From positions 2,912,001 through 2,976,000 of the forward strand of contig CM000207.1 of NCBI GenBank assembly GCA_000002445.1: DNA of 64,000 nt, given 5' to 3'. The position numbers and the translations under genes were made by a program. This stretch comes from Trypanosoma brucei (taxonomy: Eukaryota). This document shows, one piece after another, positions 3,995-61,679 of the stretch. Under the pieces are notes generated by a model that did no database searches, had not been told where the DNA came from, and was given only the letters and a program-made list of their open reading frames with translations. How positions within the stretch are numbered: position 1 is the first letter of the stretch; each line of letters begins with the position of its first letter.

Positions 3995-4865
<871 letters not shown>

Positions 4866-5677: not shown

Positions 5678-7288
5678 ATGGCTAAAAAAGTATTAGGCTT
5701 TGCTCAACTTGCAACTCTAATAGTTGTGTTGTCACCGTCTTCAATTTACGCCAACGTTGGACCAGGAGACAACGCAGCGGAATTTACCACGCTGTGTCAA
5801 CTAATTTCGCTAGCAGAAGGAGCAGCACAGCCTCCAGCGGCGACAACGGCTCCAAGCGCCGAATACGACGAACTCATGAGACTAAACATGACTCTAAGCG
5901 ACGAAGCTTGGCACGATATGTTCATAAAAAGTAAAGCCGACAAAACATGGCACGACGCAATACCCGCCACCGCGAAGGACCCGGGCGGATGGGCCGAAGC
6001 CTGGCCGACCTGGAGGAAGGCAGCGGAAGAGCTAACACAAGAAGATAAGATGGCCAACATCAAAAGCCTAAACGTCAATGCAGCAAACCCTAAACAGAAA
6101 GCAATGATAATAACGGAAATACGCAAAATGGCAGACGCAGCGCAGGAACTCATGAAAAAGAGGCATACGCTCGACAAAAGCATCGAAAAGCCGCCACAGG
6201 AGTATGCCGCGGCTTTAAAAACTTTGGCCTACGGCGACAAAACCAAAAATAGAAAAACCGTAACGGCCGCCGACGCGTTCAAAGGCGGCAGCACCAGCTT
6301 CAGCACTGACTGCGGCGGGGCGGCGGCCAGCAACAAGATAAAAACAGTCGCAGCCACGATAACTTGCTTGTGCCACAAAGCAAATACACAAAACGAAGAC
6401 CAGGTGTGCGGACGAACAGTTAAGATCACGACAAACACATGGACCGTAAACGGCGCGATCGGCAGCGCAGGGGTCATAACGGAGCCCCTAGGCTTTTGCA
6501 GCGTAGAGCAAGGCACCGACTTAACAAGCTCGGAAATCACAGCAATCCTACGGCAGCTTAAAAGCTTAATCAAAGTCACATCAAACGACGGTATACTAGG
6601 CGCCTCAGACAATGGCAGCTGCGATGCGGACAAAACTCACGGCATCTGCATCAAGTTAACCAACTGGGCGGCCGACGGTAAAGTCGACATAACGAAATTA
6701 GAGTGGGCAAAGCAAGCAGTCGAGCTAGCAAAGGAGCTCAGCAGAAGAGAACACGCAGCGGCATCAGCAGCAGAAATAGACAGCGCGATCAGGAACTTGC
6801 ACAGACAGGCGTTTCGCACGACGCTCTACACAGCGCACATACAGCACAACCCGCATCAGACAGCAACGCCCTTAGATTCAACTTCAAAAAACGATAAAGG
6901 AATGGAAGACAAGAAGAAAGAATGCGAGAAACACAAAAACAACAAAACTTCTTGCACAAATGCTAAATGTATATGGGAAGGAAAAGATGGTAAATCTGAC
7001 ACAGAAGGCGAATGCAAACCTAAAGATGGAGGCAAAGGTACAGCCCAAACAAATGCAGGAACAGGAGATGGAACTGCAGGGACAGGTCCAAATTGCGCTA
7101 GCCAGACTAAAAAAGAGGATTGTGAAAAGGAAAATGTTGGAAAAACAACCCCTGTTTGCGGCTGGAGAATAGGCAAAGATAATGAACCTGATAAAGATAA
7201 AGAAATGTGCCGAAACGGTAGTTTTCTAGTAAACAAACAATTCGCCCTCAGCGTGGTTTCTGCTGCATTTGTGGCCTTGCTTTTTTAA
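5678..7288 (+). CDS. VSG: Intact VSG (536 aa): signal peptide MAKKVLGFAQLATLIVVLSPSSIYA, N-terminal domain, Cys-rich C-terminal domain, and GPI signal GSFLVNKQFALSVVSAAFVALLF
   Basis: Single uninterrupted ORF with all VSG hallmarks. The 70-bp array lies about 0.8 kb upstream. Canonical 3'UTR elements (TTTTCCCC 8-mer at about 7292 and the 16-mer at 7343-7358) lie downstream. Confidence 0.85.
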   Translation: MAKKVLGFAQLATLIVVLSPSSIYANVGPGDNAAEFTTLCQLISLAEGAAQPPAATTAPSAEYDELMRLNMTLSDEAWHDMFIKSKADKTWHDAIPATAKDPGGWAEAWPTWRKAAEELTQEDKMANIKSLNVNAANPKQKAMIITEIRKMADAAQELMKKRHTLDKSIEKPPQEYAAALKTLAYGDKTKNRKTVTAADAFKGGSTSFSTDCGGAAASNKIKTVAATITCLCHKANTQNEDQVCGRTVKITTNTWTVNGAIGSAGVITEPLGFCSVEQGTDLTSSEITAILRQLKSLIKVTSNDGILGASDNGSCDADKTHGICIKLTNWAADGKVDITKLEWAKQAVELAKELSRREHAAASAAEIDSAIRNLHRQAFRTTLYTAHIQHNPHQTATPLDSTSKNDKGMEDKKKECEKHKNNKTSCTNAKCIWEGKDGKSDTEGECKPKDGGKGTAQTNAGTGDGTAGTGPNCASQTKKEDCEKENVGKTTPVCGWRIGKDNEPDKDKEMCRNGSFLVNKQFALSVVSAAFVALLF

Positions 7289-8705: not shown

Positions 8706-9732
8706 TAGAACTATGGTGGAGGGAACGAATGAACAAGCAAAATGGAAAAAATTTAAATATCGTGAGATTGTAATAGGAGTAAGTGAGTGAGTGAGATAGT
8801 GAGATGGTGAGTGTGCAAAAGATTTTGAGGGCGCGCGAGGGATATTATTAAGGAAACAGGAGGAAAATACAGATGGAGGAAGGTGTCATACACTCAGCTC
8901 CAAACACAAAAACGACTATGGAACTATAATACATAAAGGATATGATGGAAAGGCAATGAAAGAAAGACTCCACTTTAAAATCTCAATGGAGTTGCAATGT
9001 TTTGCGGGGAAGAAGAACACGATCAAGAAGGAAAAATATAGAATAACACAACGAAATCAGAAAAATCACGGCTCATAATAAAAGAGTATGTGATTGTGCT
9101 GTGGAATTCACACATGGATGTCCAAGTACTACTACAGACAGGTTGTTGGCGAATATCGTTTTCAATATGCTGGCCACAACGGACGGACGGAGATAGCCTA
9201 GGAAACTTTTATTTTTTAATGGAGTGTTTAGGAGAGGCTGCTCCTTTACCGCTAGAATACCAATAATAGAAAATCAAAATTAATAGGTGATCAACAAAGA
9301 TGGGTTAGATGTATAGTATCAAAACTCATACAGTTCTGTATAGCGGTGGGTCAAGAACTAATGCACTAAACCCCCCGAAACCATAGACGACGATGACACC
9401 CCTACAATGGTGGCAAAGTGTGATGATAGCGCATAACAAAAATGTTGAAGTTATTCACAACAACAATCACTAATTTCTGTAAAACTACAGACTTCATCTC
9501 CAAACACGACAAATTCAGCGCCTCTAATATGTTGTAACACCAACAACACTATCCTGAGTGTTAGAGAATAACAGAACGATAAGCACATACCAGATGAGCA
9601 ATGGAAGCATTAGCATTTTCAACAGTGATGTTTATACTGGCCTGTCCCGCACAGCTGACCGACGCCTAAGCACCAGCGAAGAACCCCCTCGACGGCTCGA
9701 AGATAGCAGGGCTCTGTAAAAAAGCAGGCGGC

Positions 9733-11195
9733 ATGCGCCAGACTGCAGCGGCGATACAAGCAGCTTTGGCAGCAGCTGAGCCAATAGTACAGAATGCTAT
9801 CAAACTACAACACCAATTAATCATCTATTCCCTTGCAGAAGCGGTCAAAAAGCGGGCTAAAATAGCAGCAATAAGAGCAGCGGCAGCGACAACAGCAATA
9901 AACAACATCTACTCGGCAGCAATAGCGAAAGCCAAAGGAGGAATATACCTAGCAGCAAAAGCAAATATCGTGGCTGGTAGCATTATAGAAGCAACCACAC
10001 TACTACTTGAACAACTCAAAGCGACCGAAGCTTCATGCGACGTCTCATGTCTAACAAATGCAGCGACCCGAAAAACAGCGGTGACGCACAGCCAGGACCT
10101 ACAGGGATGCGATAGCCTAGCAATACCTGACACGGTAAGCCTAGAAGGGCTAGAGAAATTCTCCGACCAAAGCTTCAAAAGCGGAATCCCGGAGGGAAAC
10201 GCAGCGTCGACAGAGAGCAGCTTCGCCAAATGCCTGCTGTTCGAAAACCACCCAAGTGCCACGGGCATGTTCACTGGCAACATGGCAAGCCATCTGACCA
10301 TGATGGCCGGGCTGCTGACAACAGGCACAACGGGCCCAGAAATCCGCCGGATAGACGACCTAGAGCCGACCAGCGCAAGCTCAGCGAACACACCGGCATA
10401 CCTCGAAGCAATTAAAGCCGCTAATGCGTACAAGACGACACCAGAGATAACAGATGACGACCTTTATGCAAGTATCTCTCAAGAATTAACAGGAGACGTA
10501 TTTCTGGCAGAGATCAACTTCGCCATAAACGACGTCAAAGCCAAACCCGAAGAGGTCCCAGCAACTAATGAGCTCAAGGCGGCCGCCAAGCAGATTTTTT
10601 GGCGACAGCGCCACTAAGTTCAAAAGTAAATTCATCAAGGAAATGTTAGAAGAAGAACTGGTGTTTCCATCGGAGCTGAAGCTGACGGCCAGTACAATAC
10701 AGAAGATACCGACTAACAGGTTAAGTGAAGTCGTAGAACTTTTGATTCAAGAAACCATTTCTAAAGAGACACAGGACAAGAAATGTCCAACGAGCCATTC
10801 CGCAGCAGAGAAGTCAACTTCCGAAACAGACGTGACGTGCGAAAAGAAAGGAACAGGAGATAACTGCAAAGATGGATGTAAATGGGGCAGTGACGGACCA
10901 AATAAAAATGCGTAGTGGATAAAACTTACACGCCAAAACAAGTAGATGGAGGAGAAAAAAACTTATAAAATGCTCCGATGCGACAACGGAAGAGAATTGC
11001 AAAAAGGTTGAGGGTAAGAAACCAGAAGGCAAAAATGCAGTTTGTGGACGGACTGATTATGTCGATGGAAGAGGGAAACTACCCGAACACGAATATCTAG
11101 ACGAATGTTTTATAGACAAAAAAATTGGCTCTGAGTACGGCTGCTGCTTTTATGGTCTCGCTGTTTTAATTTTCCTCTATTTTTCTTTCTGAAAT
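9733..11195 (+). pseudogene. VSG: VSG pseudogene (N-terminal domain ORF 9733-10617; C-terminal domain in shifted frames 10568-10915 and to about 11190, with a degenerate GPI tail)
   Basis: VSG-like N-domain without a signal peptide at the ORF start (MRQTAAAIQAALAAAEP...). The Cys-rich C-terminal pieces (...CEKKGTGDNCKDGCKWGSDGPNKNA) are out of frame. A 16-mer variant and telomere-like tract lie downstream. Confidence 0.65.
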
Positions 11196-11907: not shown

Positions 11908-11949
11908 GCATTAAAAGGATATTTCCCAATTTTATGAAAACTATGAAAC

Positions 11950-18670: not shown

Positions 18671-18700
18671 TCGCTTCGCATAAGCAATGATGTCGGGGAT

Positions 18701-21523: not shown

Positions 21524-21752
21524 CTCGCGTGTGCGTTAGCGTCTGCACCGATGAGCTGGGCACCGTCAGTCGTCAGAAGCGTATCTATGTCAGTTGCCGT
21601 GAAAGTGTGTTTTGGTGGGATGTATGCCGACGTGACACTAGCGCCGTTCCACGTGCAATGTGAATTGTTGCATGCACTTGTTCAATGCGACCAACAACGA
21701 GTCTACCGGTATAGACTGGCATGTGCTACCTCACTAGTATTGATACACCACC

Positions 21753-22196: not shown

Positions 22197-22211
22197 CGCC
22201 AGGGGCCGTAG

Positions 22212-25433: not shown

Positions 25434-26880
25434 TTATTCTAGAAGCAAAACTGCGAGAAAAAGAGGCGACTTGTTAATAACAGCATAATCGTTTCCTGTA
25501 GTGTTTGTTGTTCCTGAATTTTCACTGTTTTCTGTTTTTATTTTCTTTTTAACTTGTTTCTCATCTACTTCGCACTCCCCTTTCTCGTTATCCCCTCCTT
25601 TCCATGAGCATTTCGCTCCTGTGCAAGCTTTTTTGTTGTTTTTGTGTTGTGCGCATTCTTTTGTTTTTGCTAAGGTTTCGGCGTCACTATTTTTTTTTTG
25701 ACATTCTTCTGAGCAACGTTTTTGTTTGCCCACGGTCGTGCGTGGTAGATTAGGTCCTTCGTTATCTTGGCTTTCGCCTTTACTGCATCTGCAGTGTGCT
25801 GTCGGATTGCAACGGCTTTTTTATGTTTTCGTAATTTTCCTAGCAGGCTATGAAGTTGTCCCAGCCAAGGTATCACTTCGCTGGCTTTTCCCGCTCCTTG
25901 TGAAAGGCCGTTGTAGCTTACACATATGCCTCGCGTCTCTTGTGCTGAGCAGTCTGTACCTAGATACACACCGAGTGTGGCTTTACTTGTGCATAACTTT
26001 AGAAGGCTTGCTATAGCGTCTATTTTTGCTTCTAGCTTCGCTGCAGTTAGCTCGGCTGTTTTTTGAGTGTCACACAGCTTTTTCACTTCTTCCATCGTCG
26101 CTTGGTTTGGTGGCGTACCGGCGACGGTCCAATTCGAGGTCATGGCAGGATCGGCTCGGCATACTTTGTCTTGATTATGGGCATTGTTGGTGCTTTCTTT
26201 CATGCAGAGGCACGCCAGCGTGCCGAGGACCGTTTTGGTTTTGCCGGTGTTTTTTTCCCCCGTGCAAAGTGTGTCGCGGCTCCCTCCTGCCTGCTGCCTC
26301 AAAATTGCCTGTCGCTATCTCTGCGCCAACCGGCTCTTTGTCCCTCCCATACACCGCTGCGTTTAGCATTTGTTGCACGGTTTCGGTGGTTAGAAGGTCG
26401 GTTTTCGGTGCTTCCGCCTCTGCTTAGAGTTGAAGCGCTGCTGCTTCCGCTGCAATTTTTTGTACGTCGCAGCAGATGTTGGCTATCTGTTCCTCAGTTG
26501 CCCCTTTTAGGCCCCGCTGCTCTCTCTTGGTTTTAAGTTTATCGTCGGTCAGAATTTCTTCTTTGCTTTTCCATTCGTCCCATTTGGCCCCCCAGTCTGT
26601 TGTTTGATTGTAGTCGGCCTCAGGGAAGTCCCTCGCCGTGTTTTTTCCTGGCCCTGCCCTGAAGATTTCGCGCCATTCGTTTGTCGCCACCGACATGTTG
26701 AGGTCTAAGAGGTCGTTGAGGGCTGATGGGGGCCCGACTTTGGATGCGGGTAACATAGATCGCTGGCCGGCGAGTGTTACGATCGCACAAAGCGCCGTCG
26801 CTTCGTTAGCATTCGCGAGTTCAGAAAAATCGGCTGCCACCTTGAGTAAAAATACCGATTATAGCACTGTCGACAGGAAC
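25434..26880 (-). pseudogene. VSG: VSG pseudogene (frameshifted: N-domain 26424-26840, middle 25670-26302, C-terminal domain and GPI tail 25434-25733 ending ...GNDYAVINKSPLFLAVLLLE*)
   Basis: B-type N-domain (..ATALCAIVTL.., NMSVATNEWREIF), then ..LACLCMKES..., Cys-rich C-terminus and an Asn-type GPI signal, in three different frames. Confidence 0.7.
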
Positions 26881-27924
26881 AGTTGACGTGCCCACAGCAT
26901 TGAATATTTTGGTTTCGCTTGCTCAAGTTCCCTCGCTATGATTGTTCTTATCTTGTCCCTTGTAGGCTCTGCCTGTCGTGATAAGCAGTGAGGGGGATCT
27001 GGGGAGGTTAGTAAGTTTTGTTTTTTTAAGGTTGTTACTGCGGTGTTTGATTGTTTCGCATGTTGTTGGCTGCACCTTGGCGACGAGTTGTGGTGCAATA
27101 ATAGTGGATCGGCAGAATTTTCTTGTCTAACGGGTTCGCCGCTGTTCGGAGTCATGCATCCTGATTCCTTGTTTTTCCTCCCATAAGAACCGGTTGCGCA
27201 GGCGCTCGGATTTAAGTTGACGGTAACGCTTTTACTTACCCGGGAGCCTTGCGATGTTATCTCTTTTCGCTGCAAATGATCTACTCCTGTTTTCAAAATC
27301 TAACCCATATTAATTTAAAAATCCGCAAATCACATTCATCCATCCGCCTATAAACACCATTCTCTTTCCCCTCTATTTTTCAACTAATCTTCAACCCACA
27401 AAACAGCTTCGTGAATCAGTATAAACAACTTACTCTAATTGTTAACGCCTCTGTTCAACGTTGTGTGAAAAAGCAGATCCTTTCCCATTTATGCAGTAGA
27501 TTCTATCAGTTTTTGAGTAGCATATGGAAATCCTTCGCTTCTACCAACCCTGATGTATCATTTCTTTTACTGGGGTGTTGTCGCAAATACTGTCGTTTCG
27601 CTATGTATTTTATTTATTTTTTGTTAACTGCTGCTATCACAGTTTAAAAAATATAAAATCCACTTTTCCTTTACACTGCCCTATCTCTTTCCCTCTCGCA
27701 TTTATTACCCTTCATAACCTCCTTGTGTATGGTTATGCACGTATACATCTTTGCGCTTAAAATTGTGGATATTATATATTTATTTTTCTTCCTCTGTTTC
27801 TGCAGTTCCTTTCATTAATATTTCTGGTTTCCACTATATCTCACTTACTCCGTCAGCTACTTCCATTTCATCCTCAAAATTGTTTAATATCCTTCATTTT
27901 GGGCCGTGACTTTAGTCTTTCTTT

Positions 27925-28460
<536 letters not shown>

Positions 28461-31700: not shown

Positions 31701-32005
31701 TAAAATAAACAACATGATCCAAAGTAGCGAATGTTCCAAAGGGCACTCATTTTCATACCCTATCACCATACCACTTCTCACCCACAGTCACTATTATACA
31801 CAATTCACTAAAATTTTCGTATTTTTCGAGTTTCTCAACCTTTCATAATTTTCATCAGAAAATGTTAAAATATAGCAAATTTTAAAAAATCCTTAGAATA
31901 CTAAAATGCTAACCAACTCATAAAAGCAGAAGAAGTAATCAAAGCGAATTTTTCATTTAGAATAATTCTGGAATATTTGCCTTTAATCCATCAACAGACA
32001 GATTT

Positions 32006-33406
32006 TTACGGATTTCTGACCCTCATTTTTCTTTTTTTACAGGCAGCCTTATCTTTGTGCCTTGTACACCTGTCTGATGGTATTTTGCCATCTTGATTTG
32101 TTGTATCTTCCTTCTCTATTTCTATACCTACTACGCACTTCTTTTCACCGTTTTCTGAAACTTCTTTGCACCCATCTTTGCAGTTATCTTCTTTCCCTTT
32201 CTTTTCGCATGTGGTGTTGGTTATTGTTACAGTAGCTGCTTGCTTTGTGGCTGGTGGCGCTGTCGTTTGTGTTGCTTGCGGGGGTTGTGGTATGGGCTGT
32301 GAGTATGCTGCTCGAGCTGTGTCTATCAGCCGCCTCGCGATAGCTGCTTGCGTCGCCGCTTCATTTGCCTTTTCTATGCTTTGTTGCATTGTGTTGTAGG
32401 CGCTGATTAGTTTTTCTCCCCATTTTATGCTTGCTAGCCCCTTTCCCGTTTTTTTGGTGTAAGCTGCACTGTAGTCGACGCATACTTCGCCGTCGCCGCC
32501 GTTGCAGTTGCCGGCGCCTCGCTTACCTAAGATATGGTAGACGGTTGTTCCTTGCTTGTGCGTCCGAATTCCTGCTGTGATACGTGTGATAATGCTGCCT
32601 AGTTCGGTCAGCGCTATTGGTGACGTCTCCTGTTTCTGGCATTCCCCGAGTACTAGGGTGTGTGGCGACCCTGTTAGGTCTGAGTTCCAGGCTATCGCCA
32701 GGCCACTGTTTTCGCATGTCTGCGGGTTGGGTGAACCGCTTTCAGCACACAGACAGATCATGTCGCCGATCACGGATTTGCCGCCGTTGGCGCTGCATGC
32801 CGCTCCCCAGTTAGTGAGTGCTGTTAGCGCTTTGGCAAGTACGAATTTGCTATCTTCTACGCCCTCGCCGTAGATTGCTGCTGATATTTGTTTAACTACT
32901 TGAGCTGGAAGCGTTGTGGTTGCTTCCTCTTTGGCTCCTTTGTACAGGGTATTCGTTGTTATCAGCTTCTCAAGGGTTCCATTTATTGAGCGGCGAGCTA
33001 CGGCAGCTGCCCATCCGGTTGGGGGCGGGTTGTTGTCTAACCAAGATTTTCCACTATCTTTTTTGGTTGTTTCGTGTTTAATCTGCAACCATTTGTCGTA
33101 CGTTTTCTGCCAGTGGCTCTTAAAGGGTTCGGCTTGCGCATGTTTGTGTTTTTGGGCGTAGGAGGCGGACTCGGGGTCGCCTGAGAAAATATCTTGCCAC
33201 TCATTGGCTGCCACTGACATGTTCATCTTTTCTATGTCCGCTATGTCACTATCAAAGTCGTCTGGCAGCTTCGGCATGGCTACTTCGCGCCCTCGCAAGT
33301 TTGCCGCATCGCAAAGCAGTAATAGGTCATGTCTGTTTTCTAGCGTTAATGCCGCCCTTCCGTGACTCGTCAGTGCTAGAATGGTGATTGCTAACGTAAA
33401 AAGCAT
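32006..33406 (-). CDS. VSG: VSG (466-aa ORF: signal peptide and complete N-terminal domain). The C-terminus is aberrant, with in-frame TAA (32006-32008) and TGA (about 31991-31993) separating it from an in-frame GPI tail EKFALITSSAFMSWLAF* (about 31899-31950). Likely a pseudogene as it stands
   Basis: MLFTLAITILALTSHGRAALT... B-type N-domain (NMSVAANEWQDIF, ICLCAESG), C-domain ...CEKKGKEDNCKDGCKEVSENGEKKCV.... The ORF ends ...CKKRKMRVRNP* without a hydrophobic tail. The tail is found in the same frame after two stop codons. Confidence 0.75.
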   Translation of the reverse strand: MLFTLAITILALTSHGRAALTLENRHDLLLLCDAANLRGREVAMPKLPDDFDSDIADIEKMNMSVAANEWQDIFSGDPESASYAQKHKHAQAEPFKSHWQKTYDKWLQIKHETTKKDSGKSWLDNNPPPTGWAAAVARRSINGTLEKLITTNTLYKGAKEEATTTLPAQVVKQISAAIYGEGVEDSKFVLAKALTALTNWGAACSANGGKSVIGDMICLCAESGSPNPQTCENSGLAIAWNSDLTGSPHTLVLGECQKQETSPIALTELGSIITRITAGIRTHKQGTTVYHILGKRGAGNCNGGDGEVCVDYSAAYTKKTGKGLASIKWGEKLISAYNTMQQSIEKANEAATQAAIARRLIDTARAAYSQPIPQPPQATQTTAPPATKQAATVTITNTTCEKKGKEDNCKDGCKEVSENGEKKCVVGIEIEKEDTTNQDGKIPSDRCTRHKDKAACKKRKMRVRNP

Positions 33407-34687: not shown

Positions 34688-34745
34688 ATTGTTTTTTAAA
34701 ACTGGTATATACACACTCACAACACACTCCTATCACTTTGATTAC
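34688..34745 (-). repeat. Single 70-bp repeat core, reverse orientation (CTGGTATATACACACTCACAACACACTCCTATCAC)
   Basis: Reverse complement of the GT-rich core. Upstream (on the minus strand) of VSG 32006-33406. Confidence 0.6.
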
Positions 34746-35099
34746 AACATCAACTAGTATCAATAAAATTAACAAAAAAAGAAAAGAAACTTGATAGAAA
34801 AGCACTTAATTTTCATATCATATTACGTTATTACTACATACACAAGTCACTATCATACACATTTTATTTTTTATGCTTTTTAATATTTTTCAACCTCTTA
34901 AAATTTTTAGAGATATGCACGTTTTCATCAAAAAAATGTAGTAATATATCAAATTTTAGCTATTTTAGAAAATTATTTTAAAACGGCAAGTTTCATAAAT
35001 TTTCATAAATTCGAACAGAAATCCTTAAAATTTTATATTTCTTAAAATTCTATGAAGTTCATAAAAACAACATATACATGTGGAAAAGAAACCGTCATA

Positions 35100-36700
35100 T
35101 AGTCAGAAAATTATTTTTCTCCCTTGTCTGTTTCAGGTTTTGAAAAGCATTTCGGGTCTTTTTTCTTATCAAAATCGCAACCAGTTTCCTTTTTGCATGA
35201 TTTCTCCTTTATGTGCCTTTTGCGTTCGCTTGTTGATTTGGGTGACTCTTCTGTTTTGTCTTCTTTGGGAAATGAGGGGCCTTCTTGGCCGTTCTTTTTT
35301 TTTTCTTGTTCTGCGATGTAAACAGTGACGGTGTAATAGATTTGTGCATCCGCGAGCTCTTTGGGGTCATTTATCGTTTCAAGTTTCTTGTCTCCGCTGC
35401 TTAAAACAATCTCTTTTGGTGGTGTTAGTTCCTTGAGGTATTTTTCTATTGTGTTCTTCACATTGTGTACCTTCTCACCGATCAATTCTTTTAGGAATGC
35501 GCCGACTTTACTCTTGGTTTATGTCTTGCTGTAGGATGCTTCTGCTCCGTCTAGTTCCTTGGCGAGAACATCTTTTAACTTTTGGCTTTGCGCCAGCACT
35601 GCTAAGTTGGCGGTTAGTGTTATCCTTCTCAGTTGCTTGTTGGAATTTTAAAGCTTTTTTATCAACTTAAGGTTTTCATTTATTGTATTACTTCTTGGTA
35701 CTGTCTGCTTACTGTCGGCGTCGTTGTATTCTGTCGTTGTTCCGGACGTTATCATGTTGATTGTTACCTGTTTTGTCGTGAAGAGCTTGACCACCTTTTA
35801 TGCCTATTTCAGTAGCTACGCTTTTTGTGCAGCTGGAAGAGGTTACTGTCGTGCCGCCTCATTTGCTTCCCCCGCATACCGTTAGTGGCGCGCCTGCTGC
35901 TGCAACTGGGGTTTCTGGATGCGTTGTTACGATATTCCATGTTAGATCCGTTCCCGGTGGCTCCTCCCCCTCGTTGAGCCCCGTCCGGGTGTTCGGTGGT
36001 GACAGGCAAGTTCAGTGCTGCGGGTCGCTTAGCGTTACATCTATTTTTAGGTGACTTCCTGTTATCGGTGTGTTTGCTGTTCTTACATTTTTATCTGCTA
36101 CCGTGAAGTGGTTGAGGCTTTCGAATGTTTCTTGCGTTACAGCCAGTCGCGACACCGCAGCTATCCCCTGTAAGATATCAGTGATTTGGTTCGCTATTTC
36201 TTGCGCCGCCGTCTGGACGTCAGTCAGCATCTTTTGCGCTACCAGCTGTGCTGCCATTGTGAGTAGCTGTCGGAGCGACCCAGATAGTAAAAATAGCTTG
36301 TTTGTCGGTGCTGTTGCCGCTTTTAATTCGCTCAGTTTGATCGAAATTGTGTTCTTTGCATTGTCAGCGATTTTATGCAAGTACGTTGCCGTATCGTATG
36401 AAGTGTTGAGCCCGGTCTCATGGTTGTGAAGGCCAGTCCCTTTAGTTATTGGCGTCGCTTTCAGCACAGCTGTTACAAATAATGCCGCATGCAGCGTTGT
36501 CATCTGCTGAGGAGAATAAGCCTGACGTTTCTTTGCTAGATTTTGCGCTTTGTTGATATGATACGAAAGAAATGCAATTTTTTTACACAGTTCAACTTGG
36601 TCACTATGAACCGCTGTTTTTTGTCGCTGAATATAATATGCTACAAATTTGTAATTTAACGTCACGATTTGAGGTAAAAAAGCAGTCAGTTGAACCACAA
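35100..36700 (-). pseudogene. VSG-like pseudogene (atypical N-domain ORF 36012-36698; Cys-rich C-terminal piece 35111-35485)
   Basis: The C-terminal piece (...KSCKKETGCDFDKKKDPKCF...) and its position between reversed 70-bp units suggest a VSG cassette. The N-domain is Cys-poor and lacks a signal peptide, so the assignment is tentative (possibly VSG-related or fused). Confidence 0.4.
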
Positions 36701-37959: not shown

Positions 37960-38062
37960 ATTTTACCAAATTCTTTTAAAATAACAAAGTTTCATAAATT
38001 TCATTTAATTTAACAAAAATCCTTAGAATGTTTAAATGCTACCAAGCTCATAAAAGCAACGG

Positions 38063-39585
38063 TCATCGAAAAAATTTCTTATTTACAAGAAAACTGGAAT
38101 CTTTGAAAGCATCACATTCCCACTTGTGATTTCCAGTGCAATCTTCCTTCTTTTTTATTATCGGAGCATTTCTTTTCTTTCTTCCCATCTTCTTTGCTCC
38201 CTCTGCCTGTGGTGGCTTGTAATCCGGATCCTTTACGCATTTTTTATTGTCGCCTTCACCCTCCACTTTGCATCCTTCTTTGCAGTTATCTCCTGTCCAT
38301 TTCTTTGAGCATGTTTCGTCTGTTTCTTTTTGTTTTTCTTTTGGCATTTGTTTCCGTATTTTTGCTTCCTCAATTAGTTTGGTGGTCTCTTGGCGGCGTT
38401 TCTGTTGGTAGCGAGCTAGTGCTTCTTCTAGCTATGTTTTAGTGTTAAGCTCTTTTAGTGTTTTAGTTTTTATTTCATTGGCGTCGGCTTTCTGGACTGA
38501 GTACTCTTTTAGTTTGTTCCATATATTGGTGTTGAATTCTGCTTGGTTGTCTCCTACGAGTTTTTTCCTAAGTTCTTCTTTGGTAGTGCCGGCGGGTAGT
38601 GTGGTTATTTGTGCCTGTGCTAGGTGAGCTGCCTCTACTGCTTGCTGTAGTTCGCTGTCGGTTTTCCAGTCGTCAAAGCTGGTTTCCGATAATTGTTTTG
38701 CAGGTGTCTGCTCTTGCGCTGCAAGTTCGGCATTGTGTTTTGCTGCGATTACTACGATCGATGGTGTCGCTCCTGCGTCGGCTGCCTTCGCTTGGTGCAC
38801 GCTCGTCATTGTTGGGCTGCCCGTTGAGACCTTGAACAACCCCCCTGCCCATGAGATGCCGGATCCGGCTGTCGCCTCGCCAGCCGTGTAGCCTTTGTCC
38901 TGTCCGTGCTGGTTAGTTGGCAGCTTTGGGCGTTCGTGTTCTGTGCAGTGTGCACAGCGCCGCTTTCATCGCTGTTTGCGTAGTAAAATTCTGGCTCGAG
39001 TTGTGTTTGTGCTGTCTCAAAATTTACTTCTTCTGAGCACTCTGGCATTAAGGTGTTTATGTCGCCGCCGCCCGAATCCCCGCCGCTTAAGTGTAAGCAA
39101 AAACGGTTGGACGGGTTGCTGCCTTTTGCCGCCGCAAAAACGTCTATTGTTTGTTTGATGTGTCCCGCTGCATACATGGAAGCTGCTGCTGCTGGTATTG
39201 CTTTTTGTGTCATGGCGGTCAGTTTATTGACATAAGAGTTGATTTTGTTGCCGACAAACGTTACAAGGACATCGATTGCTGGCTGGTCTTCCATAGGTGC
39301 GGCGCAGGCGGCGGTTTGGAGCCGTGCGTGGAGCAGTTGGAGGTTGTTGATTTTTTGCTCCCACTGCTTGACTGCTCCTATTGCGCCCTTTGTGGTTTTT
39401 ATGTAGTTTTGACTTAGTTTGCACAACCGTATCGCTGCCGCTTTTGACATAGCGTTACCTGCTGTTCCCTCCGTTTTTGTTATGACCAGCAGGGCGGCAA
39501 TGACCGCTGAGATAAGTGTAGTGCAGCGAACAGAAATTGTTGGCGGCGTCGGCTTTGTTGTATCATTGATTCTTCGTTGTTGCAT
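38063..39585 (-). pseudogene. VSG: VSG pseudogene (signal peptide plus N-domain 38806-39585; middle 38432-38839; C-terminal domain 38063-38347 ending ...CDAFKDSSFLVNKKFFR*)
   Basis: Three ORF pieces in different frames. The tail is truncated after FLVNKKF, so there is no complete GPI signal. Confidence 0.7.
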
Positions 39586-41050: not shown

Positions 41051-41339
41051 CTAATATCCATAAATTTAACTAAATTAGCAGGATAATTAGAATAGCACTC
41101 ATCTTTCATACTCTATTACTATACTATTATACACTCATATGTCACTATCATGCGCACTTTACTAAAATTTCAGATTCGCACAATTAGCAATGTTTTTAAA
41201 ACAGTGCTCAAATATGTCAAATTTTAGGAAAATTTTTTGAAATATTAAATTTTCATAAATATCGTAAATTTCAACCAAGTCCTTGTTATGCTGAAATGCT
41301 ACTAAACTCAAAAAAGAAGCAGCCATCAGAGCTAATTTG

Positions 41340-42900
41340 CTGATTTACAAGAAAAATGGAGTCACGACATTCGACTTTGTCCTTTTCATCCTCGTTATAT
41401 TTCCCACTTCTTCATCCACAATGCTTTTTGCCATCCTTGTTGACGGCCTCGCACGCCTCCTTGGTTGTATGGCTAGAGCAATTTACTCCTGTTGTTTTCT
41501 CCACAGTTTTGTCGGCAGGTACATCTCCCGCGTTTGTTTTTGCTTGTGTATCTGTGGCTTGTTTGTTTTCGCCCTGGTCCTTGGCACTTTGCTGGTTGAT
41601 CTGCGCTGCTAGATAAGAGGTTATCTTTCCTATAGATTTTCCCTGAACAATATCCACTAGTGTGCCGGTAACAACGTTGTCCCCTACAGTGATCTTGCGT
41701 ATTTTTGTCTGGGCGTCCGCTACAAAGTTCTTCTGGAACCCTTCTTCACTATCTGAAAATGCCTCTTCTACTGCCTTTTTTTTTGGCTGCTGCTTCTGTT
41801 GGCATTTTTTGGGGGTCTTTCCCGAGTGCGATGTGCGCTAACCCGGCGGCTGTTTCATCCGTTGCAAGCGTTTTGATGGTTTCAGCAGCAACTGAGTTCG
41901 GCACAGTGACGGTGTGCTTTAGGGCATGGCAGGTTACGTGAAGGAGATATTCTTTGGTCGTCGTTGCCCAGGGTGTGTTGAGCTTTTGTTCCTTACATTT
42001 GGTTTGCGCCGTGGGATCGTCGAACATTTGCTGCTCCACGAGTCTTATGCTTGTTGCTTGCGGTGTTGCTTCCGCCCCCAGCACTTTGCTGCCTGTTTTT
42101 GGACCGCTTGTTTGAACACACCAGCCCGAGCTGCTGCTTGGCCAGTCGATGGTCCCCATTGTGCCCTTTGCTCGAGCGACTAATGAGATTTTTTGAGCTT
42201 CGAAAATGTCGTTTGGCGCCAGTTTGAGCTTTGCTATTTTATTCAGTTCGATGTTGTTTTCTTTAACTTGTGTGTTGGCGTCGCTTTCAATTGAACAATT
42301 GTCTGCTTCCGTCAGCGTTGGTATGTGGACTACCGTGCAGCTTGTGGAGCTTGCCGACGGGTTGCTGTCGGCCCCGTTGTGGGTCGCCTGCGCTGCGGTT
42401 TGTATTGTCTTCATGTGTTTTTTCCTGGCCGCTAGTGCCATGGCGGCTCTTGCCCTTAGTGCTTTCACTGCTGGCCCTATGACTTTTTCTGCTGCTGCAA
42501 TTGACGACCTGGCTTGGTTTGCCCTGGCCTCTGCGTTTGTTGCCAGGACAGTATGGCCAGCAGCAGCCGGCTTACTGACTTTCATCTGTGCTAACAAGCG
42601 GTGTGCTTGTGCTAACTTTCCCTCTGTTTCGGTGAAAGCGGCGGCGGCTTTCGTCTTAGTTTTCAGCCGATTTGACAGAGCCACAAGATATCGTATTTCG
42701 TCACAGAGTGTTGTCGCTGCAGTTGCTGCTGTGTCTAAACCAGTGGCCTCCGTTACCCTGGTTGTCACGTGCTACAGCATTGCTAGAAGCACCGTGGTCT
42801 TCCAAGCCGTGTATGTCGCGCGCATGTCTACTAGTAATGGTTTGCAGTTCTGATAAGGTTGTTTTGTGCGTTTCGCAAGCTGCTTTGGCAGCGTTTTAGT
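41340..42900 (-). pseudogene. VSG: VSG pseudogene (N-domain 41749-42768 lacks a signal peptide in frame; C-terminal piece 41412-41657; mutated GPI tail)
   Basis: A-type N-domain features (..LCDEIRYLVAL.., ..VTCHALKH..), C-domain ...GVNCSSHTTKEACEAVNKDGKKHCG, and a tail remnant ..DSIFLVNQQISSDGCFFFEF... Confidence 0.65.
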
Positions 42901-43739: not shown

Positions 43740-44360
<621 letters not shown>

Positions 44361-44698
44361 CTATAATCATCATAACTGTTATTTTTACCGTTATAACTAC
44401 TATTACTATAAAACCATTAATCAAAATTGCTTAAATAAACAAAAATACTTAGAATATCATTTACTTTTTATATCCTATCACCATACCACTGTGCACCCAG
44501 AGGCCACTATCATACATATATTTCAAAAATTTTAGACAGATAAATTTCATAAAATTGAGAGAAAATTCTTAAAATCCTTAAAATATAAAACCCACTAAAG
44601 CAGCAGCGATCAAAGTAAATTTCTTATTGACAGTAAAACTATAATCCTTTCAAGCATTATTTTCCCATTTGCAGTTTCTAGTGCAATCTTTCTGTTGC

Positions 44699-46150
44699 TT
44701 ATCTTTGCATTCTGAAGTTTTTTTTGGTTCCTCCTGTTCTTGCTTGGGTGTCTTGTTGTTCTGCTGCTGCCTCATTCAATTTGCAGTGTTTTCCGTCTTT
44801 TTCATCAGAACCTGTCCATTTGCAAATCGGACTCTTTTTTCTGCATTCAGCTGATTTCGTTATTTCCTCGCATTGGTCGGCACTTTGAGGCAATGCTCTT
44901 CTATCGGCCAGACTTGCTGCTTGTTTTGGGGCTGCCGCTGCCATCAATGCTATTGTGGTCATTGTTTTGTTTAATTGCTGGATGTTTTCCGCTAGCCGGA
45001 ATGCTTTCTTGGCTGCCCCCCGGGCTTTTTCTATGGCGTCGGCAGCGCCAAGCATTTTCTGTGCCCACCCGATTGCTAGATTGTCGCCGCTTTGTGGCCC
45101 GTAATAAACGCAGCACCCACCGTTGCTGGCGTCTATGTCGTCGCAGCCGTCATTGCCGTTGCCTATTGCTGCGCCCAGCATGTAAGTCTTTGCTTTGTTG
45201 GTTCCAGACCCAGTCGATGCTGCTTGTAGGACCGCACTGACGGTTGCTCTTAGCGCCGCTGCCGTCACTAGCTTAGCTTTGCTGTGCTTCTTGCATGCAT
45301 CGTACAACTCCTTCCATTGGGCTGGACCGTTTGCCATGTTTGCCCAGGTTGTGTCGCTGGCCGAAATTGAAACGGTACCGCACACTGCTGCCTGGTCCTG
45401 TTGTGTGTCTTTGCTACAGATGCATAGGAAATCCGCTGCGATCGATTCCCCTGCGATTTTTCCCTTTTTGCCTCCGCTTCCAGCATTGCCGCATGCGTCT
45501 ACTCGGCTTTCTACCGTTGTCGCCGTCACTTTCGTTTGTTTGTCAGCAACCGGGCCCACCGCTTGTTTGAGCAACGTCTGCGCTGTGTCAGCTTTGGCTT
45601 TTAGTAGTTCCGCCCTGAGCTCCGTCGCCAACTGCAGTACGGCTTGGGCTTGTTCTTCCAGCGCTTGCCTTGCCGTGTCAGAGAAGTCCGCACCTTTTAT
45701 TAGCTGATAGGCCTTGTCCGTCTTTGCTGTTTTGTGCCTATTAGCTGCCTTGACGCAGTTGGAGGCTGCCACCTCAACGCATTCCTTGCCTGCTGTTGAA
45801 CTTGGTTTGCTGATTGCTTCCTCAGCACTGTTCTTTGCCGCTAGTTCGGCTAGAGCTTCTGGGCTGAGTAGCGTTATGTTGATTAGCGCCGCTGCTTCCT
45901 CGGCGTCTGTTGGTTCGGCTGGTATCTCTGGCGCTGCTACCTGGGCTGAAGCGACATCGAGAGCGTTGCAAAGCAGTGCAAAGTCGCTAGCATGTGTTCC
46001 GGCTGCAGGGCCGGCCGCTCCTGCTGGTCCTGCTGCTACCGCAGCCATAAGCAACCCTGTGATAACGAATAAAGTTTGCTCTGAGCGAGTCGTGGATGCT
46101 TTTCTTCTTGCTGCTTGTTCCTGGGCAGTTGTGCTGGACTTCTGTCGCAT
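44699..46150 (-). CDS. VSG: VSG (483-aa ORF, N-terminal and most of the C-terminal domain open). A frameshift and a TGA (rc at about 44650-44652) separate the 3' end from the GPI tail KDYSFTVNKKFTLIAAALVGFIF* (about 44585-44640). Likely a pseudogene as it stands
   Basis: A-type N-domain (..FALLCNAL.., ..CICSKDTQQDQAAVCG..), C-domain ..CKWTGSDEKDGKHCK... In the +1 frame the 3' end reads ..CTRNCKWENNA*KDYSF..., with the stop where the consensus Cys codon sits. Confidence 0.7.
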   Translation of the reverse strand: MRQKSSTTAQEQAARRKASTTRSEQTLFVITGLLMAAVAAGPAGAAGPAAGTHASDFALLCNALDVASAQVAAPEIPAEPTDAEEAAALINITLLSPEALAELAAKNSAEEAISKPSSTAGKECVEVAASNCVKAANRHKTAKTDKAYQLIKGADFSDTARQALEEQAQAVLQLATELRAELLKAKADTAQTLLKQAVGPVADKQTKVTATTVESRVDACGNAGSGGKKGKIAGESIAADFLCICSKDTQQDQAAVCGTVSISASDTTWANMANGPAQWKELYDACKKHSKAKLVTAAALRATVSAVLQAASTGSGTNKAKTYMLGAAIGNGNDGCDDIDASNGGCCVYYGPQSGDNLAIGWAQKMLGAADAIEKARGAAKKAFRLAENIQQLNKTMTTIALMAAAAPKQAASLADRRALPQSADQCEEITKSAECRKKSPICKWTGSDEKDGKHCKLNEAAAEQQDTQARTGGTKKNFRMQR

Positions 46151-48410: not shown

Positions 48411-48414
48411 TAGA

Positions 48415-53677: not shown

Positions 53678-55059
53678 GTTAATAGGATTAGTAGACGAAA
53701 GGAAAGAAAATAAAGTAAAAAGTGAAACAACAGAATAGGTGGAAACACAGTGCATAACTGAATAAAATGATACAAGAGAATATTATGCTTGAAATGTCAC
53801 ATAAAATTGGTTAGATTCTACCGCAGAAATAATGGCGACTGTGTTTGAAATGCATGAACGGCACCAAATATTGATCACTAGGTTTGCGGGCCTACCTACA
53901 ACTGGTTGTATGGGGGAGTGCTGTAAGTTGAAGATAAACAGAATCCGATTGCAAAGGAAAAGGATGTAAAATGATTTTGGTGGTAATTTTTTTGAATAGG
54001 TCTGCCGACAGTAGCGAATAATAATAATAATAATGCAGCGGATATAAAGTGGCGCTACTTGTACATGAATGAATGAAACTCCTCAGTGTCAGAAGAAAAA
54101 GTTATCATCGAGCGTCAAGCAGTGTGTTGGAGGGTTTGATGGCCAAGAACAATCATGAATAAGCAAAATTTAGTTTAAAAAAGCAAAGTATAAGAAACAC
54201 AGCACTTTTCTCATGTTTTTTTGGGATAACAAACCAACAAACGGCCCACACATCTAACGGAGACCTAATAATGAAAGAAACTGTCAACAACCTGGCAGTA
54301 ACACGCACACTAAGTTTCATCCAACACAAGGTGCGGCTCAGAGCAAAAAACGACCTACAGCCACCATGTCTCATTTTAATTCTAACAAACTACATCTCTA
54401 TGCGCCCACGAACAAGTGCAATGGCCACAGAATGTGCATTACGCCAAAAAGGCCTAAATAGGGGGCCAAAAATGAAACAATAAATCACAAAGTGGAACCT
54501 AACCGACAAAAAGTAGCAAGCGCAGGGTAAGGTTGCAGTAGTTACTCCACCGCCAGTTAAAACTACTAAACTAAGAACGGGAGCCCAAAACACATATTCG
54601 GCGAAGCACATGCTGAACAGCAAGCAGAAACCTTAAGAGAGTAGGCAGAAGTTTAATGTCAGTTCCGGAGCTGGCGCTGCGACGCGGCAAACAACGAGAA
54701 ACCAATAAAAGAGAGGCGATGCGCACAAAATTTGGACGGGCTACCAAAACAGCCAACGCTAGAAATGTCACGGCCGAGTTAACTCTAGCACGTCTACACG
54801 GCACGGAGGAAACACCATCAGCAATAATAGACGTGGGCCGACAGCCAAGTCCAACAAAGCAGGATGTCAACGGCAGTAACGTGTGTCAAAACAAAAGCGC
54901 CAATGCGAAACAACATGCGATCTTGCCGTTAAAGGCAGTAAAAACCACAAATAAAGCGTCTCCAGCGATCAAAAATCAGGCAATACATCCCCTTAGAATC
55001 TTCACAAAAACGAAAAGCAAGCAAAGTATCACAAAGCAAATGCGGCTAGTGGCACAAGT

Positions 55060-56564
55060 GGCAGCAGCACTAATGGCAACACTATTGAAAAGCGACAGTG
55101 CGTTCAGAAGCCAACGCGGCGGACTTGCACTTGCTTTGTGCAGCCTTCAGGCTAGGCGGAGTGGACATGCAGTTGCCAGAAATAAAGGAGCTGAAACAAG
55201 CAGACATAGATGAGCTCAGAACAATGAACATGTCAACAGCAGAAGCCAACTGGTAGGAGTTATTTAAAGGGGACCCTAACAAAGACACGTGGCAGGCACG
55301 AAAAACCACAATAAAAAAATAACCTTTCTTAATGCACTGGGAACAATCATTCCCACAATGGCAGCAAGACTATCAACGAGCAATTAAGACAGGCAACGGC
55401 AAGACATGGCTAGCAGAACACAAAGCACCATCCAACGAGTGGCACAGGCAGCTAGCCGCACATACCATAAATGAAACACTTGAACAGATATTAAGTCTGC
55501 GAAAAAGCTACGACAAGATTAAAAGCGATATAACCGAAACGAAGGCCAAACAAGTGAAGGAACTCATATGCGAAGCTCTGTACGGTGAGGGGAAAACGGA
55601 CTGCACACCAAAAGCAACAGTAACAACAACAGCCGACACAACATGGTCGACCAGCTGCGGCGACAACGGCGGCAAAAGCATCGTAGGAGACATGCTCTGC
55701 CTGTGCTGCGCAAACAGCGGCACCAATACTGCGGACAGTGACAACAGCAATATAGCGTGCGACTGGACCAGCAGCATTATCGGCAAATTCGAAGCCGTCA
55801 CAGCCAAATGCCCCAGCCAAAAACCCGCAAAAATAACGCCACAACTACTTGCAACGACAATAGCGCAATTAAAAAGCGGGATAAGGCACAAGGACCAAGG
55901 AAGCGCAATCAAATTCCACCTCGGAAAAGACCCTAACAGTTGCACCGGAAACAGCGGACAACTTTGCTTGGAATACCCTGCCGCTGCCAAAGGAGGCAGC
56001 GGAGGCGCGGGTCTAGACGCAATACCATGGCTCAAAAAGATGAACGACGCACAGGCAAAGGCAGACGAAATAGTGGCCTCGGCAGCTGAGGCACAAAGCA
56101 CGGCCATGCTCATAGAGCTTCTAATAGCATCAGCGAAAGCCACATACAGCGACCCGGCTGTCAACATACAAACCAGCCAAGAATACATTACAGGCGTGGT
56201 GCCACCTATCCCTAACCCACGTCAAGCAAGTACAACAAATAAAACTTGCATGTTAAAAGGCACCGGAGATGCCTGCAAAGATGGCTGCAAAGAAATTACA
56301 GAAAATAACCAAAAAAAGTGTGTAGTAGATGCAGAAGCGGCGAAGCAACCAGCGCGATCAGGAAATGGAGGAAATGGAGAAACAGCAACAGATAAGTGTA
56401 GCGCGGCGAAAACTCGTGGGGAATGCGCTGCAGTGAAATGTTAAATTCCAAAAGATAAAAAAGCTGTTTTTTGGTGGAAAGAAGGCAAGTGCAAGGATTC
56501 CAGCTTTCTTGTCCTTAAGAAATTGGCTCTGCTGGGTGCTGTTTTTACCGCCTTGATTTTCTAA
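55060..56564 (+). pseudogene. VSG: VSG pseudogene (N-terminal start region with frameshifts at about 55060-55330; 370-aa ORF 55332-56444; a single in-frame TAA at 56442-56444; then an in-frame tail IPKDKKAVFWWKEGKCKDSSFLVLKKLALLGAVFTALIF*)
   Basis: A-type N-domain (..ICEALYGEG.., ..MLCLCCANSG..), C-domain ..CMLKGTGDACKDGCKEITENNQKKCV... Apart from the one TAA, the gene would read through to a complete GPI signal. Confidence 0.75.
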
Positions 56565-61436: not shown

Positions 61437-61679
61437 CTAAGAAACTTGCTCTGGCTGCTGTTTCTCCTGTAGCATTGGCAGCATTTTCACTATTCCAAGT
61501 GTTTTTTCCAAATTTTATGCTGTTTATAAAAAGTATGAAATTTGGTATGAAAGTGGCCTGGGGGAGAAAACTAGTAAGATTATGAAGTATGAAAATGAGT
61601 GCCGCTCTATTTTGTTTTATTTTATTTTTTAACGAATATTAGTTAGGGTTATAATAGGAGTGGTAATTATAAGAATTTG

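What the first reader, a model, noticed from the sequence alone, without database searches (positions are those of the whole stretch)
31899..33406. Recurrent in-frame stop codons at conserved C-terminal positions of VSGs whose N-terminal domains remain fully open (also 44585-46150, 55332-56564, 59877-61520)
Four VSGs have long, clean N-domain ORFs (370-519 aa) but are disabled only near the 3' end. The 32006-33406 VSG has TAA and TGA in frame before an intact GPI tail, the TGA in a C-*-W context where the consensus is C-K-W. The 44699-46150 VSG reads ..CKWENNA*KDYSF.., TGA replacing the conserved Cys codon, plus one frameshift. The 55332-56444 VSG has a single TAA (56442-56444), after which the reading frame continues through ..WKEGKCKDSSFLVLKKLALLGAVFTALIF*. 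The 59877-61436 VSG has TGA replacing the conserved Trp codon (CK*DG) plus an A9-run frameshift. Lesions concentrated in the short C-terminal domain, sparing about 1.1-1.5 kb of N-domain, would be tolerated if these genes are used as N-domain donors. The 3' end would then be supplied by the resident expression-site VSG during segmental gene conversion. The repeated use of TGA at Cys/Trp codons (TGC/TGG to TGA) is a notably specific mutational outcome.
Basis: partly seen in the sequence, partly recalled or inferred. Interest (0 to 1): 0.5.

Follow-up and report, generated by a model that had tools for sequence, protein, structure and literature searches.

The report
VSG pseudogenes broken at 3' end
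These are ordinary silent coat-protein (VSG) pseudogenes of Trypanosoma brucei whose damage clusters in the short C-terminal part, a bias that is real here but was already described and explained by published work on "3' donation".

Summary
The window is a subtelomeric VSG array of T. brucei TREU927. Three of the four flagged genes (VSG1 31904-33406-, VSG2 44581-46150-, VSG4 59985-61495+) have a fully open type-B N-domain and are broken only in the C-terminal domain (CTD). The fourth (VSG3, 55040-56561+) is mis-described. Its 370-aa ORF starts at an internal Met, and a frameshift plus two in-frame stops lie in its first ~100 codons.

I tallied all 11 full-length VSG loci in the window. Minimum lesion density is 1.6/kb in N-domains and 4.6/kb in CTDs (p=0.003). 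Codon composition does not explain the excess of stops, though homopolymer density may explain the frameshifts. In the 7 unflagged loci alone the bias is only a trend (p=0.07).

At least part of the damage is real rather than sequencing error. The Lister 427 orthologue of VSG1 ends at the same codon. EATRO1125 relatives of VSG2 and VSG4 are also out of frame in the same stretch.

The "TGA at Cys/Trp" pattern is weak and mutationally trivial. The tolerance-by-3'-replacement idea is published (Hall 2013), with CTD-only pseudogene donors seen expressed. Marcello and Barry 2007 is, as I recall it, the genome-wide source. Verdict: real, mostly correctly read, already known.

The parts
31904..33406 (-). 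VSG1: type-B VSG pseudogene. N-domain is open (ORF 32006-33406, 466 aa). The CTD carries TAA 32006-32008 and TGA 31991-31993. The GPI-signal-like tail ends at 31904 and the terminal TAG is at 31901-31903.
   Evidence: (VSG_B 1.5e-53, profile 4-346). Lister 427 VSG-770 (P0007, AGH59936.1) is 99.8% identical and ends at the same codon 466.
44581..46150 (-). VSG2: type-B VSG pseudogene. N-domain and first CTD subdomain are open (ORF 44699-46150, 483 aa). The frame is lost at the A8 run 44718-44725. TGA 44650-44652 sits at the last conserved Cys.
   Evidence: In one search, A7 or A10 restores the frame. The EATRO1125 relative VSG 1125.2504 (P0014, 79% identical) reads as if the run were A9, so it is also out of frame.
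55040..56564 (+). VSG3: type-B VSG pseudogene damaged at both ends. It has a frameshift near 55088, TAG 55254-55256, TAA 55320-55322, then ORF 55332-56444, CTD TAA 56442-56444 and terminal TAA 56562-56564.
   Evidence: (ORF starts at profile position 88). Homologues P0011, P0154 and P0155 have Q and E at the two N-domain stops. P0155 has E at the CTD stop. All three are truncated elsewhere in the CTD.
59985..61498 (+). VSG4: type-B VSG pseudogene. N-domain and first CTD subdomain are open (listed ORF 59877-61436; likely start Met at 59985). There is a one-base deletion at the A8 run 61360-61367. TGA 61397-61399 sits at the Trp of CKW. CAA 61496-61498 stands where the stop should be.
   Evidence: VSG_B 7e-62; A9 restores ..KKTGSDCKDGCK*DGKEFKDYSF... 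The EATRO1125 relative VSG 1125.1086 (P0008, 76% identical) is out of frame over the same stretch. Read in the CTD frame its tail gives CKDGCK(W/R)DGK, so the codon is TGG or CGG there (and back-translation by hand).
5678..7288 (+). The only intact VSG of the window (536 aa, VSG_B plus Trypan_glycop_C). Used as the comparator.
   Evidence: (100% identical to TREU927 XP_827760.1).
2455..3963 (+). Type-A VSG pseudogene L1: one stop in the N-domain (TAG 2722) and three in the CTD (TAA 3691, TGA 3700, TAG 3874 at the CKW Trp).
9601..11166 (+). Type-A VSG pseudogene L3, with lesions in both domains and several frameshifts in the CTD.
25437..26900 (-). Type-B VSG pseudogene L4: four N-domain lesions and an open CTD. 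This is the counter-example.
35062..36503 (-). Heavily decayed type-A VSG pseudogene L12, with at least 6 N-domain lesions and 1 CTD lesion.
38034..39585 (-). Type-A VSG pseudogene L6, with lesions in both domains and multiple CTD frameshifts seen by eye.
41294..42825 (-). Type-A-like VSG pseudogene L7. It has N-domain lesions plus TGA 41412-41414 at the Trp of CGWR and a frameshift in the GPI signal.
34705..34725 (-). 70-bp-repeat core upstream of VSG1. A second core at 47408-47428(-) lies upstream of VSG2. None was found within 3 mismatches upstream of VSG3 or VSG4.
31862..31877 (-). VSG 3'-UTR 16-mer (2 mismatches) downstream of VSG1. A second copy at 56602-56617(+) lies downstream of VSG3.

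Best explanation
These are ordinary full-length VSG pseudogenes in a silent subtelomeric array of T. brucei TREU927.

They decay by single-base nonsense changes and by slippage in A-rich homopolymer runs. Lesions persist preferentially in the roughly 0.3-kb CTD and GPI-signal coding part. A silent array gene matters to the parasite mainly as a donor of the antigenic N-domain. When it is copied into an expression site, gene conversion can end inside the CTD, so the resident gene supplies the 3' end ('3' donation'). N-domain reading frames are therefore kept open more often than CTD frames.

Shown here: the lesions, their positions, the CTD bias across the window, and the cross-strain reproduction of some lesions.

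Inferred from published work: that the bias reflects weaker selection on the CTD, and that such genes are expressed through 3' donation.
For: The organism and array context come (100% match to a TREU927 VSG; VSG_B; 70-bp repeats, TAA tracts, 3'-UTR 16-mers).

The unselected tally of 11 loci gives 1.60 lesions/kb in N-domains and 4.64/kb in CTDs (p=0.0026). Four of 11 N-domains are open against 2 of 11 CTDs (simulation P=0.004). Three genes have lesions only in the CTD (P=0.0004).

In the 10-locus tally (before L12 was added), CTD codons are only 1.0-1.3 times more nonsense-prone, yet stops are about 5 times denser (p 0.002-0.006).

Amino-acid divergence from close homologues is about the same in both domains (0.77-0.81 vs 0.72-0.80), so a generally faster-mutating CTD is unlikely.

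The lesions sit in CTDs that are only about 70-89% identical over short stretches, and at different positions, so they look independent.

Some lesions are reproduced in other strains: VSG1's TAA in Lister 427 VSG-770, and the out-of-frame state of VSG2 and VSG4 in EATRO1125 relatives.

All three homologues of VSG3 are independently truncated in the CTD. Of 159 N-domain-open type-B VSG proteins retrieved, 70 lack a hydrophobic GPI tail.

Literature: 3' donation and expression of CTD-damaged donors are documented in PMC3708902. Conversion ending in the 3' coding region, with inheritance of the resident CTD, is described in PMC1868767.
Against: The sample is small and lesions within a gene are not independent.

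The hypothesis was generated from four of the eleven loci. In the other seven the bias is only about 2-fold (p=0.07).

The minimum-lesion method ignores homology and misplaces some events. It tends to under-count CTD lesions: it counts one for VSG4 where homology indicates two.

Homopolymers of 7 or more bases are 5 times denser in CTDs. The frameshift part of the bias may therefore be mutational rather than selective.

L4 and the fragment at 47740-48450 have open CTDs with damaged or missing N-domains.

No expression data were examined for these four genes. VSG3 and VSG4 lack a recognisable 70-bp repeat core upstream.
Confidence: 0.85

Rival explanations
1. Pure mutational bias. The CTD coding sequence is Lys/Glu/Cys-rich and full of A runs, so it simply acquires stops and frameshifts faster, with no difference in selection between domains.
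For: Runs of 7 or more identical bases occur at 2.08/kb in CTDs and 0.40/kb in N-domains. The frameshifts of VSG2 and VSG4 both sit in A8 runs. The run length differs between VSG2 and its EATRO1125 relative, A8 versus an inferred A9.
Against: Nonsense susceptibility of CTD codons is only 1.02-1.28 times that of N-domain codons, whereas stop density is about 5 times higher (p 0.002-0.006). Substitution divergence from homologues is similar in both domains.
Confidence: 0.25
2. Selection by the reader plus chance. Four long-ORF genes were picked out of an array in which lesions are in fact uniformly spread.
For: VSG3 was mis-read. Other loci in the window carry N-domain lesions. The 7 unflagged loci give only p=0.07.
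Against: The bias holds in the complete set of 11 loci (p=0.0026). Three genes with CTD-only damage has P=0.0004 under uniform placement. A domain-level bias of the same size was reported genome-wide by Marcello and Barry 2007 (recalled from memory; the paper is not held).
Confidence: 0.08
3. Sequencing or assembly errors, especially at the homopolymers, create apparent pseudogenes.
For: Both frameshifts lie in A8 runs, the classic site of length miscalls. No reads could be examined.
Against: VSG1's first stop is reproduced in an independent strain: Lister 427 VSG-770 has the same 466-aa ORF. Relatives of VSG2 and VSG4 from EATRO1125 are also out of frame in the same stretch. Each flagged gene also has at least one substitution-type stop, which is not a typical sequencing error.
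Confidence: 0.05
4. The TGA codons at Cys and Trp positions are recoded (selenocysteine or read-through), so the genes are functional.
For: TGA replaces a Cys codon in VSG2 and a Trp codon in VSG4.
Against: Both genes are already out of frame upstream of the TGA. VSG1 has a TAA before its TGA. Further conserved Cys residues are replaced by Tyr or Phe. The genes lie in silent arrays.
Confidence: 0.01

Closest known systems
Full-length VSG pseudogenes of the T. brucei silent subtelomeric arrays (Berriman et al. 2005; VSGdb, PMC1868767; Marcello and Barry 2007, PMC1950903)
   Same: They share type A or B N-domains, 4- or 8-Cys CTDs and GPI signals, with frameshifts and in-frame stops. Only one of 11 loci here is intact. 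Four of 11 N-domains are open against 2 of 11 CTDs. That matches the published 'about one third of N-domains but 13% of CTDs intact', a figure I recall from the abstract and could not read here.
   Different: Nothing of substance. These are particular members of that archive.
3' donation, the simplest form of VSG segmental gene conversion (Hall, Wang and Barry 2013, PMC3708902)
   Same: It covers donors with an open N-domain and a damaged CTD. The model is that the resident expression-site gene supplies all or part of the CTD. Table S1 of that paper lists CTD-only pseudogene donors that were expressed this way.
   Different: Use of these four genes as donors was not shown. I could not map them to gene identifiers or to expressed clones.
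Mosaic VSG formation from pseudogenes (Thon 1989, Roth 1989 and Kamper and Barbet 1992 as cited; PMC13233330)
   Same: Pseudogenes serve as sequence donors. VSG3, which is damaged in its N-domain, could only contribute in this way. It has close family members at about 77-81% identity in other strains.
   Different: Mosaicism needs closely related donors and rearranges the N-domain. VSG1, VSG2 and VSG4 would not need it.
Homopolymer slippage as in bacterial phase-variable (contingency) genes
   Same: A-run length decides the reading frame. Related copies differ by one A, A8 versus an inferred A9.
   Different: Both observed lengths are out of frame. There is no evidence of reversible switching or of any function, and the genes are silent.

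Membership tests
T. brucei VSG, type-B N-domain | N-terminal domain matching Pfam VSG_B (PF13206) over its full length | tested here: met
   VSG1 covers profile 4-346, VSG2 5-351 and VSG4 4-350. The VSG3 ORF covers only 88-349, and the rest lies upstream behind stops.
T. brucei VSG, type-B N-domain | C-terminal domain with one or two 4-Cys subdomains, followed by a hydrophobic GPI signal | tested here: met
   The pattern is recognisable in all four genes once stops and frameshifts are read through. Some conserved Cys residues are replaced (Tyr in VSG1, Phe in VSG4). Pfam Trypan_glycop_C is just below its cut-off for the VSG4 ORF (20.2 vs 21.4 bits).
T. brucei VSG, type-B N-domain | Array context: 70-bp repeats upstream and a conserved 16-mer in the 3' UTR | tested here: inconclusive
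   70-bp cores lie upstream of VSG1 (34705) and VSG2 (47408) but not of VSG3 or VSG4. The 16-mer, with 2 mismatches, lies after VSG1 and VSG3 and was not found within 3 mismatches after VSG2 or VSG4.
VSG pseudogene (full length, with frameshifts and/or in-frame stops) | At least one frameshift or in-frame stop between the signal peptide and the GPI signal | tested here: met
CTD-only pseudogene ('C' class of Hall 2013 Table S1) | Open N-domain reading frame with damage confined to the CTD-coding part | tested here: met
   Met for VSG1, VSG2 and VSG4. Not met for VSG3, which would be class 'N C'.
Donor expressed by 3' donation | Expressed VSG cDNAs carrying this N-domain joined to a foreign CTD | not testable with these tools
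   The exact ORFs are absent from the protein and contig collections. Gene identifiers could not be obtained, so Table S1 of PMC3708902 could not be matched to these loci.
Genuine (not artefactual) lesions | The same lesion present in independent sequence | tested here: inconclusive
   Met for the TAA of VSG1 (Lister 427 VSG-770). Indirect support exists for the frameshifts of VSG2 and VSG4. The four TGA/TAA codons downstream of each gene's first lesion were not tested.

The most novel reading that the evidence does not exclude
CTD inactivation might be favoured rather than merely tolerated. A-runs and the one-step-from-stop Trp/Cys codons of the CTD would then act as a 'lock'. The lock would keep array VSGs from being expressed whole and force every new coat to inherit a proven CTD, GPI signal and 3' UTR from the expression site.

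The mild excess of stops at Cys/Trp positions (4-5 of 9 against 18-27% expected) and the two different out-of-frame A-run lengths in related copies do not exclude this. However, CTD lesion density (4.6/kb) equals that of the most decayed N-domain in the window (L12, 4.6/kb). That is what plain neutral decay of the CTD predicts.
Probability: 0.04. Interest if true: 0.5.

Novelty: already known. Interest (0 to 1): 0.12.

Why it matters
The bias shows which part of a silent antigen gene is under selection. The exposed N-domain is kept usable while the buried, exchangeable C-terminal part is allowed to rot. That enlarges the effective antigen repertoire well beyond the few intact genes. This point is already established for T. 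brucei, so the present case adds only a worked local example and some cross-strain detail.

Tried and rejected
Homologue searches that returned nothing. A query made by concatenating the four repaired proteins found nothing. A CTD-only query also found nothing.

Exact-sequence look-ups. I looked up the four ORFs, and alternative start sites, to find independent assemblies. Nothing is on record.

Widening the tally. I tried flanks of a T. b. equiperdum VSG. The four loci are 100% identical rearranged copies of one another, so they are unsuitable and I dropped them.

Papers not held. Marcello and Barry 2007 and Weirather 2012 are not in the library. Searches for a paper quoting the 'one third vs 13%' figure failed. 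That figure therefore rests on my memory of the abstract.

Selenocysteine or read-through reading of the TGA codons. I rejected it because of the upstream frameshifts and the TAA.

Lesion-bearing CTDs spread by recent copying within the window. I rejected it because the CTDs share only about 70-89% identity over short stretches and their lesions lie at different positions.

A plain minimum-lesion path without homology. It sometimes takes a wrong frame, for example by skipping VSG4's TGA. I used it only as a conservative lower bound.

Full report
**What the window is.** ORF 5678-7288(+) is 100% identical to a TREU927 VSG (XP_827760.1) on a 3.06-Mb record. The window holds VSG genes separated by 70-bp-repeat cores, long (TAA)n tracts and VSG 3'-UTR 16-mers. 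It also holds two ingi-type retrotransposons. It is therefore a silent subtelomeric VSG array of T. brucei brucei TREU927.

**The four flagged genes.** All have Pfam VSG_B N-domains.

- **VSG1.** The 466-aa ORF (32006-33406, minus strand) ends at TAA. TGA follows five codons later in TGT-TGA-TGG. The frame then runs through ..GKYSRIILNEKFALITSSAFMSWLAF to TAG. The last conserved Cys is Tyr and the KDSS motif is gone, so this CTD is more decayed than the two stops suggest.
- **VSG2.** The 483-aa ORF leaves the CTD frame at an A8 run (44718-44725). In the proper frame the sequence reads ..TSECKDKQQKDCTRNCKWENNA*KDYSF.., with TGA at the Cys position. A7 or A10 would restore the frame.
- **VSG4.** The run at 61360-61367 is A8, and A9 would restore ..KKTGSDCKDGCK*DGKEFKDYSF... 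The lesion is therefore a one-base deletion. TGA sits at the CKW Trp codon, Phe replaces the last Cys, and CAA replaces the terminal stop.
- **VSG3.** This gene is not as described. Its ORF starts at VSG_B profile position 88. The same frame continues upstream through TAA 55320 and TAG 55254, and the signal peptide lies in another frame.

**Related proteins from other strains.** An exhaustive profile search returned 150 VSG representatives.

- Lister 427 VSG-770 is 99.8% identical to the VSG1 ORF and has the same length of 466 aa. The TAA is therefore shared between strains and is not an error.
- EATRO1125 VSG 1125.2504 is 79% identical to VSG2. It ends ..GTKKKLQNAKISNRKIAL, which is exactly the reading obtained if VSG2's run were A9. 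Two related copies thus carry two different out-of-frame run lengths.
- VSG 1125.1086 is 76% identical to VSG4. It reads ..AKMDANGMEK.. where the VSG4 ORF reads ..AKMVANEMEK.., the same wrong frame. Shifted by hand into the CTD frame this gives CKDGCK(W/R)DGK. The codon is therefore TGG or CGG where VSG4 has TGA.
- Three homologues of VSG3 have Gln and Glu at its two N-domain stops, and the Lister 427 copy has Glu at its CTD TAA. Each of the three is truncated at a different CTD position.
- These protein sets list only long ORFs, so they are biased towards open N-domains. With that caveat, 70 of 159 lack a hydrophobic GPI tail.

There are 11 full-length loci and several fragments. For each I computed the path from signal peptide to GPI tail that needs the fewest stops plus frameshifts. 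This is a lower bound that tends to under-count CTD lesions.

| Set | N-domain lesions | CTD lesions | Density (per kb) | p |
|---|---|---|---|---|
| All 11 loci | 22 in 13,761 nt | 14 in 3,018 nt | 1.60 vs 4.64 | 0.0026 |
| 7 unflagged loci | 19 in 8,870 nt | 8 in 1,803 nt | 2.14 vs 4.44 | 0.07 |

- Four N-domains are open but only two CTDs (simulation P=0.004).
- Three genes have lesions only in the CTD (P=0.0004).
- Counter-examples exist: L4 and the fragment at 47740-48450 have open CTDs.

**Why the bias?** The composition figures below come from the 10-locus tally, made before L12 was added.

- Codon composition makes CTDs only 1.0-1.3 times more nonsense-prone, while stops are about 5 times denser (p 0.002-0.006).
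- Homopolymers of 7 or more bases are 5 times denser in CTDs. This can account for the roughly 2-fold excess of frameshifts there.
- Amino-acid divergence from close homologues is about equal in the two domains, which argues against a hypermutable CTD.
- CTDs within the window are only about 70-89% identical over short stretches, and their lesions differ in position. The lesions are therefore independent events, not copies.
- The most decayed N-domain (L12, 4.6 lesions/kb) matches the CTD average. This fits neutral CTD decay with constrained N-domains.

**The TGA claim.** Nine stops lie in the homology frame of CTDs in the window. Three are at the conserved Trp (TGA 61397, TGA 41414, TAG 3874). 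One or two are at a conserved Cys (TGA 44652, and probably TGA 3700). Codon content predicts 18-27% at Cys/Trp. That gives p=0.014-0.064 for five of nine and 0.07-0.20 for four of nine, and the test is post hoc. TGG is two transitions from stops and TGY is one transversion from TGA. VSG3's TAA derives from GAA, and VSG1's TGA sits at the Lys/Arg position. I see no special mutational process.

**Comparison with what is known.**

- Hall et al. [quoted passage not shown]
- Their Table S1 lists, by my count, 15 annotated donors with CTD-only pseudogenicity. Six of them were used as single array donors together with 3' donation. Only one N-domain-damaged gene was used as a single array donor.
- The VSGdb paper describes conversion ending in the 3' coding region, with inheritance of the resident CTD.
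- Marcello and Barry 2007 reported, as I recall the abstract, that about one third of N-domains but only 13% of CTDs are intact. The paper's existence and PMC id are confirmed, but the text is not held. The window gives 36% and 18%.

**Verdict.** The bias is statistically supported in the window. The TGA specificity is not supported. Nothing here is new.

Noticed in passing
16964-22199 and 48419-53657: Two ingi-type retrotransposons lie in inverted orientation, 96.8% identical over 5243 bp. Every VSG locus between them (25.4-48.4 kb) is on the minus strand. Every VSG outside them (0-12 kb and 55-64 kb) is on the plus strand. This looks like a roughly 26-kb inversion by recombination between the inverted copies.
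   Followed up: partly
47740-48450 (-) and 22270-22749 (-): VSG fragments abut the inner ends of both ingi copies. The first is the 3' half of a VSG with a completely open CTD and GPI signal. The second is an N-domain-like piece.
   Followed up: partly
61496-61498; 1-375 (+): Stop-codon loss after the GPI signal. CAA follows ..AAFSLF in VSG4 and ..AFLLL in the VSG cut by the window start, which extends the tail. Several database VSGs show similar extensions, for example P0005, P0039, P0060 and P0146.
   Followed up: partly
44718-44725: The A-run length apparently differs between VSG2 (A8) and its 79%-identical EATRO1125 relative (reads as A9). Neither is the in-frame length of A7 or A10, so the tract may be slippage-prone.
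   Followed up: yes
8133-8300 (+) with 16-mer at 8416; 11560-11910 (+): Isolated VSG 3' fragments (CTD end plus GPI signal). One has a perfect 3'-UTR 16-mer. Neither has an N-domain upstream.
   Followed up: no
41749-42768 (-) and 63195-63998 (+): Two long open N-domain-like ORFs (339 aa, and 268 aa running off the window) give no Pfam hit at all. The first is followed by a clear VSG CTD and the second follows a 70-bp repeat. They may be divergent type-A N-domains that the Pfam model misses.
   Followed up: no
23328-24288 (-): Short ORFs with weak galactosyltransferase similarity (E about 0.03). This is probably a decayed glycosyltransferase pseudogene inside the array.
   Followed up: no
623-1473, 4069-4803, 28004-28417, 43851-44328: Very long, nearly pure (TAA)n tracts of up to 283 units lie next to 70-bp-repeat cores. 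They produce spurious long poly-Ile/Leu/Asn ORFs on both strands.
   Followed up: no
L001-L004 (T. b. equiperdum GCA_003543875.1): Four places carrying the same VSG are 100% identical rearranged blocks. The downstream type-A VSG is 516 aa in one copy and 375 aa in others. This is either recent segmental duplication or an assembly artefact.
   Followed up: no
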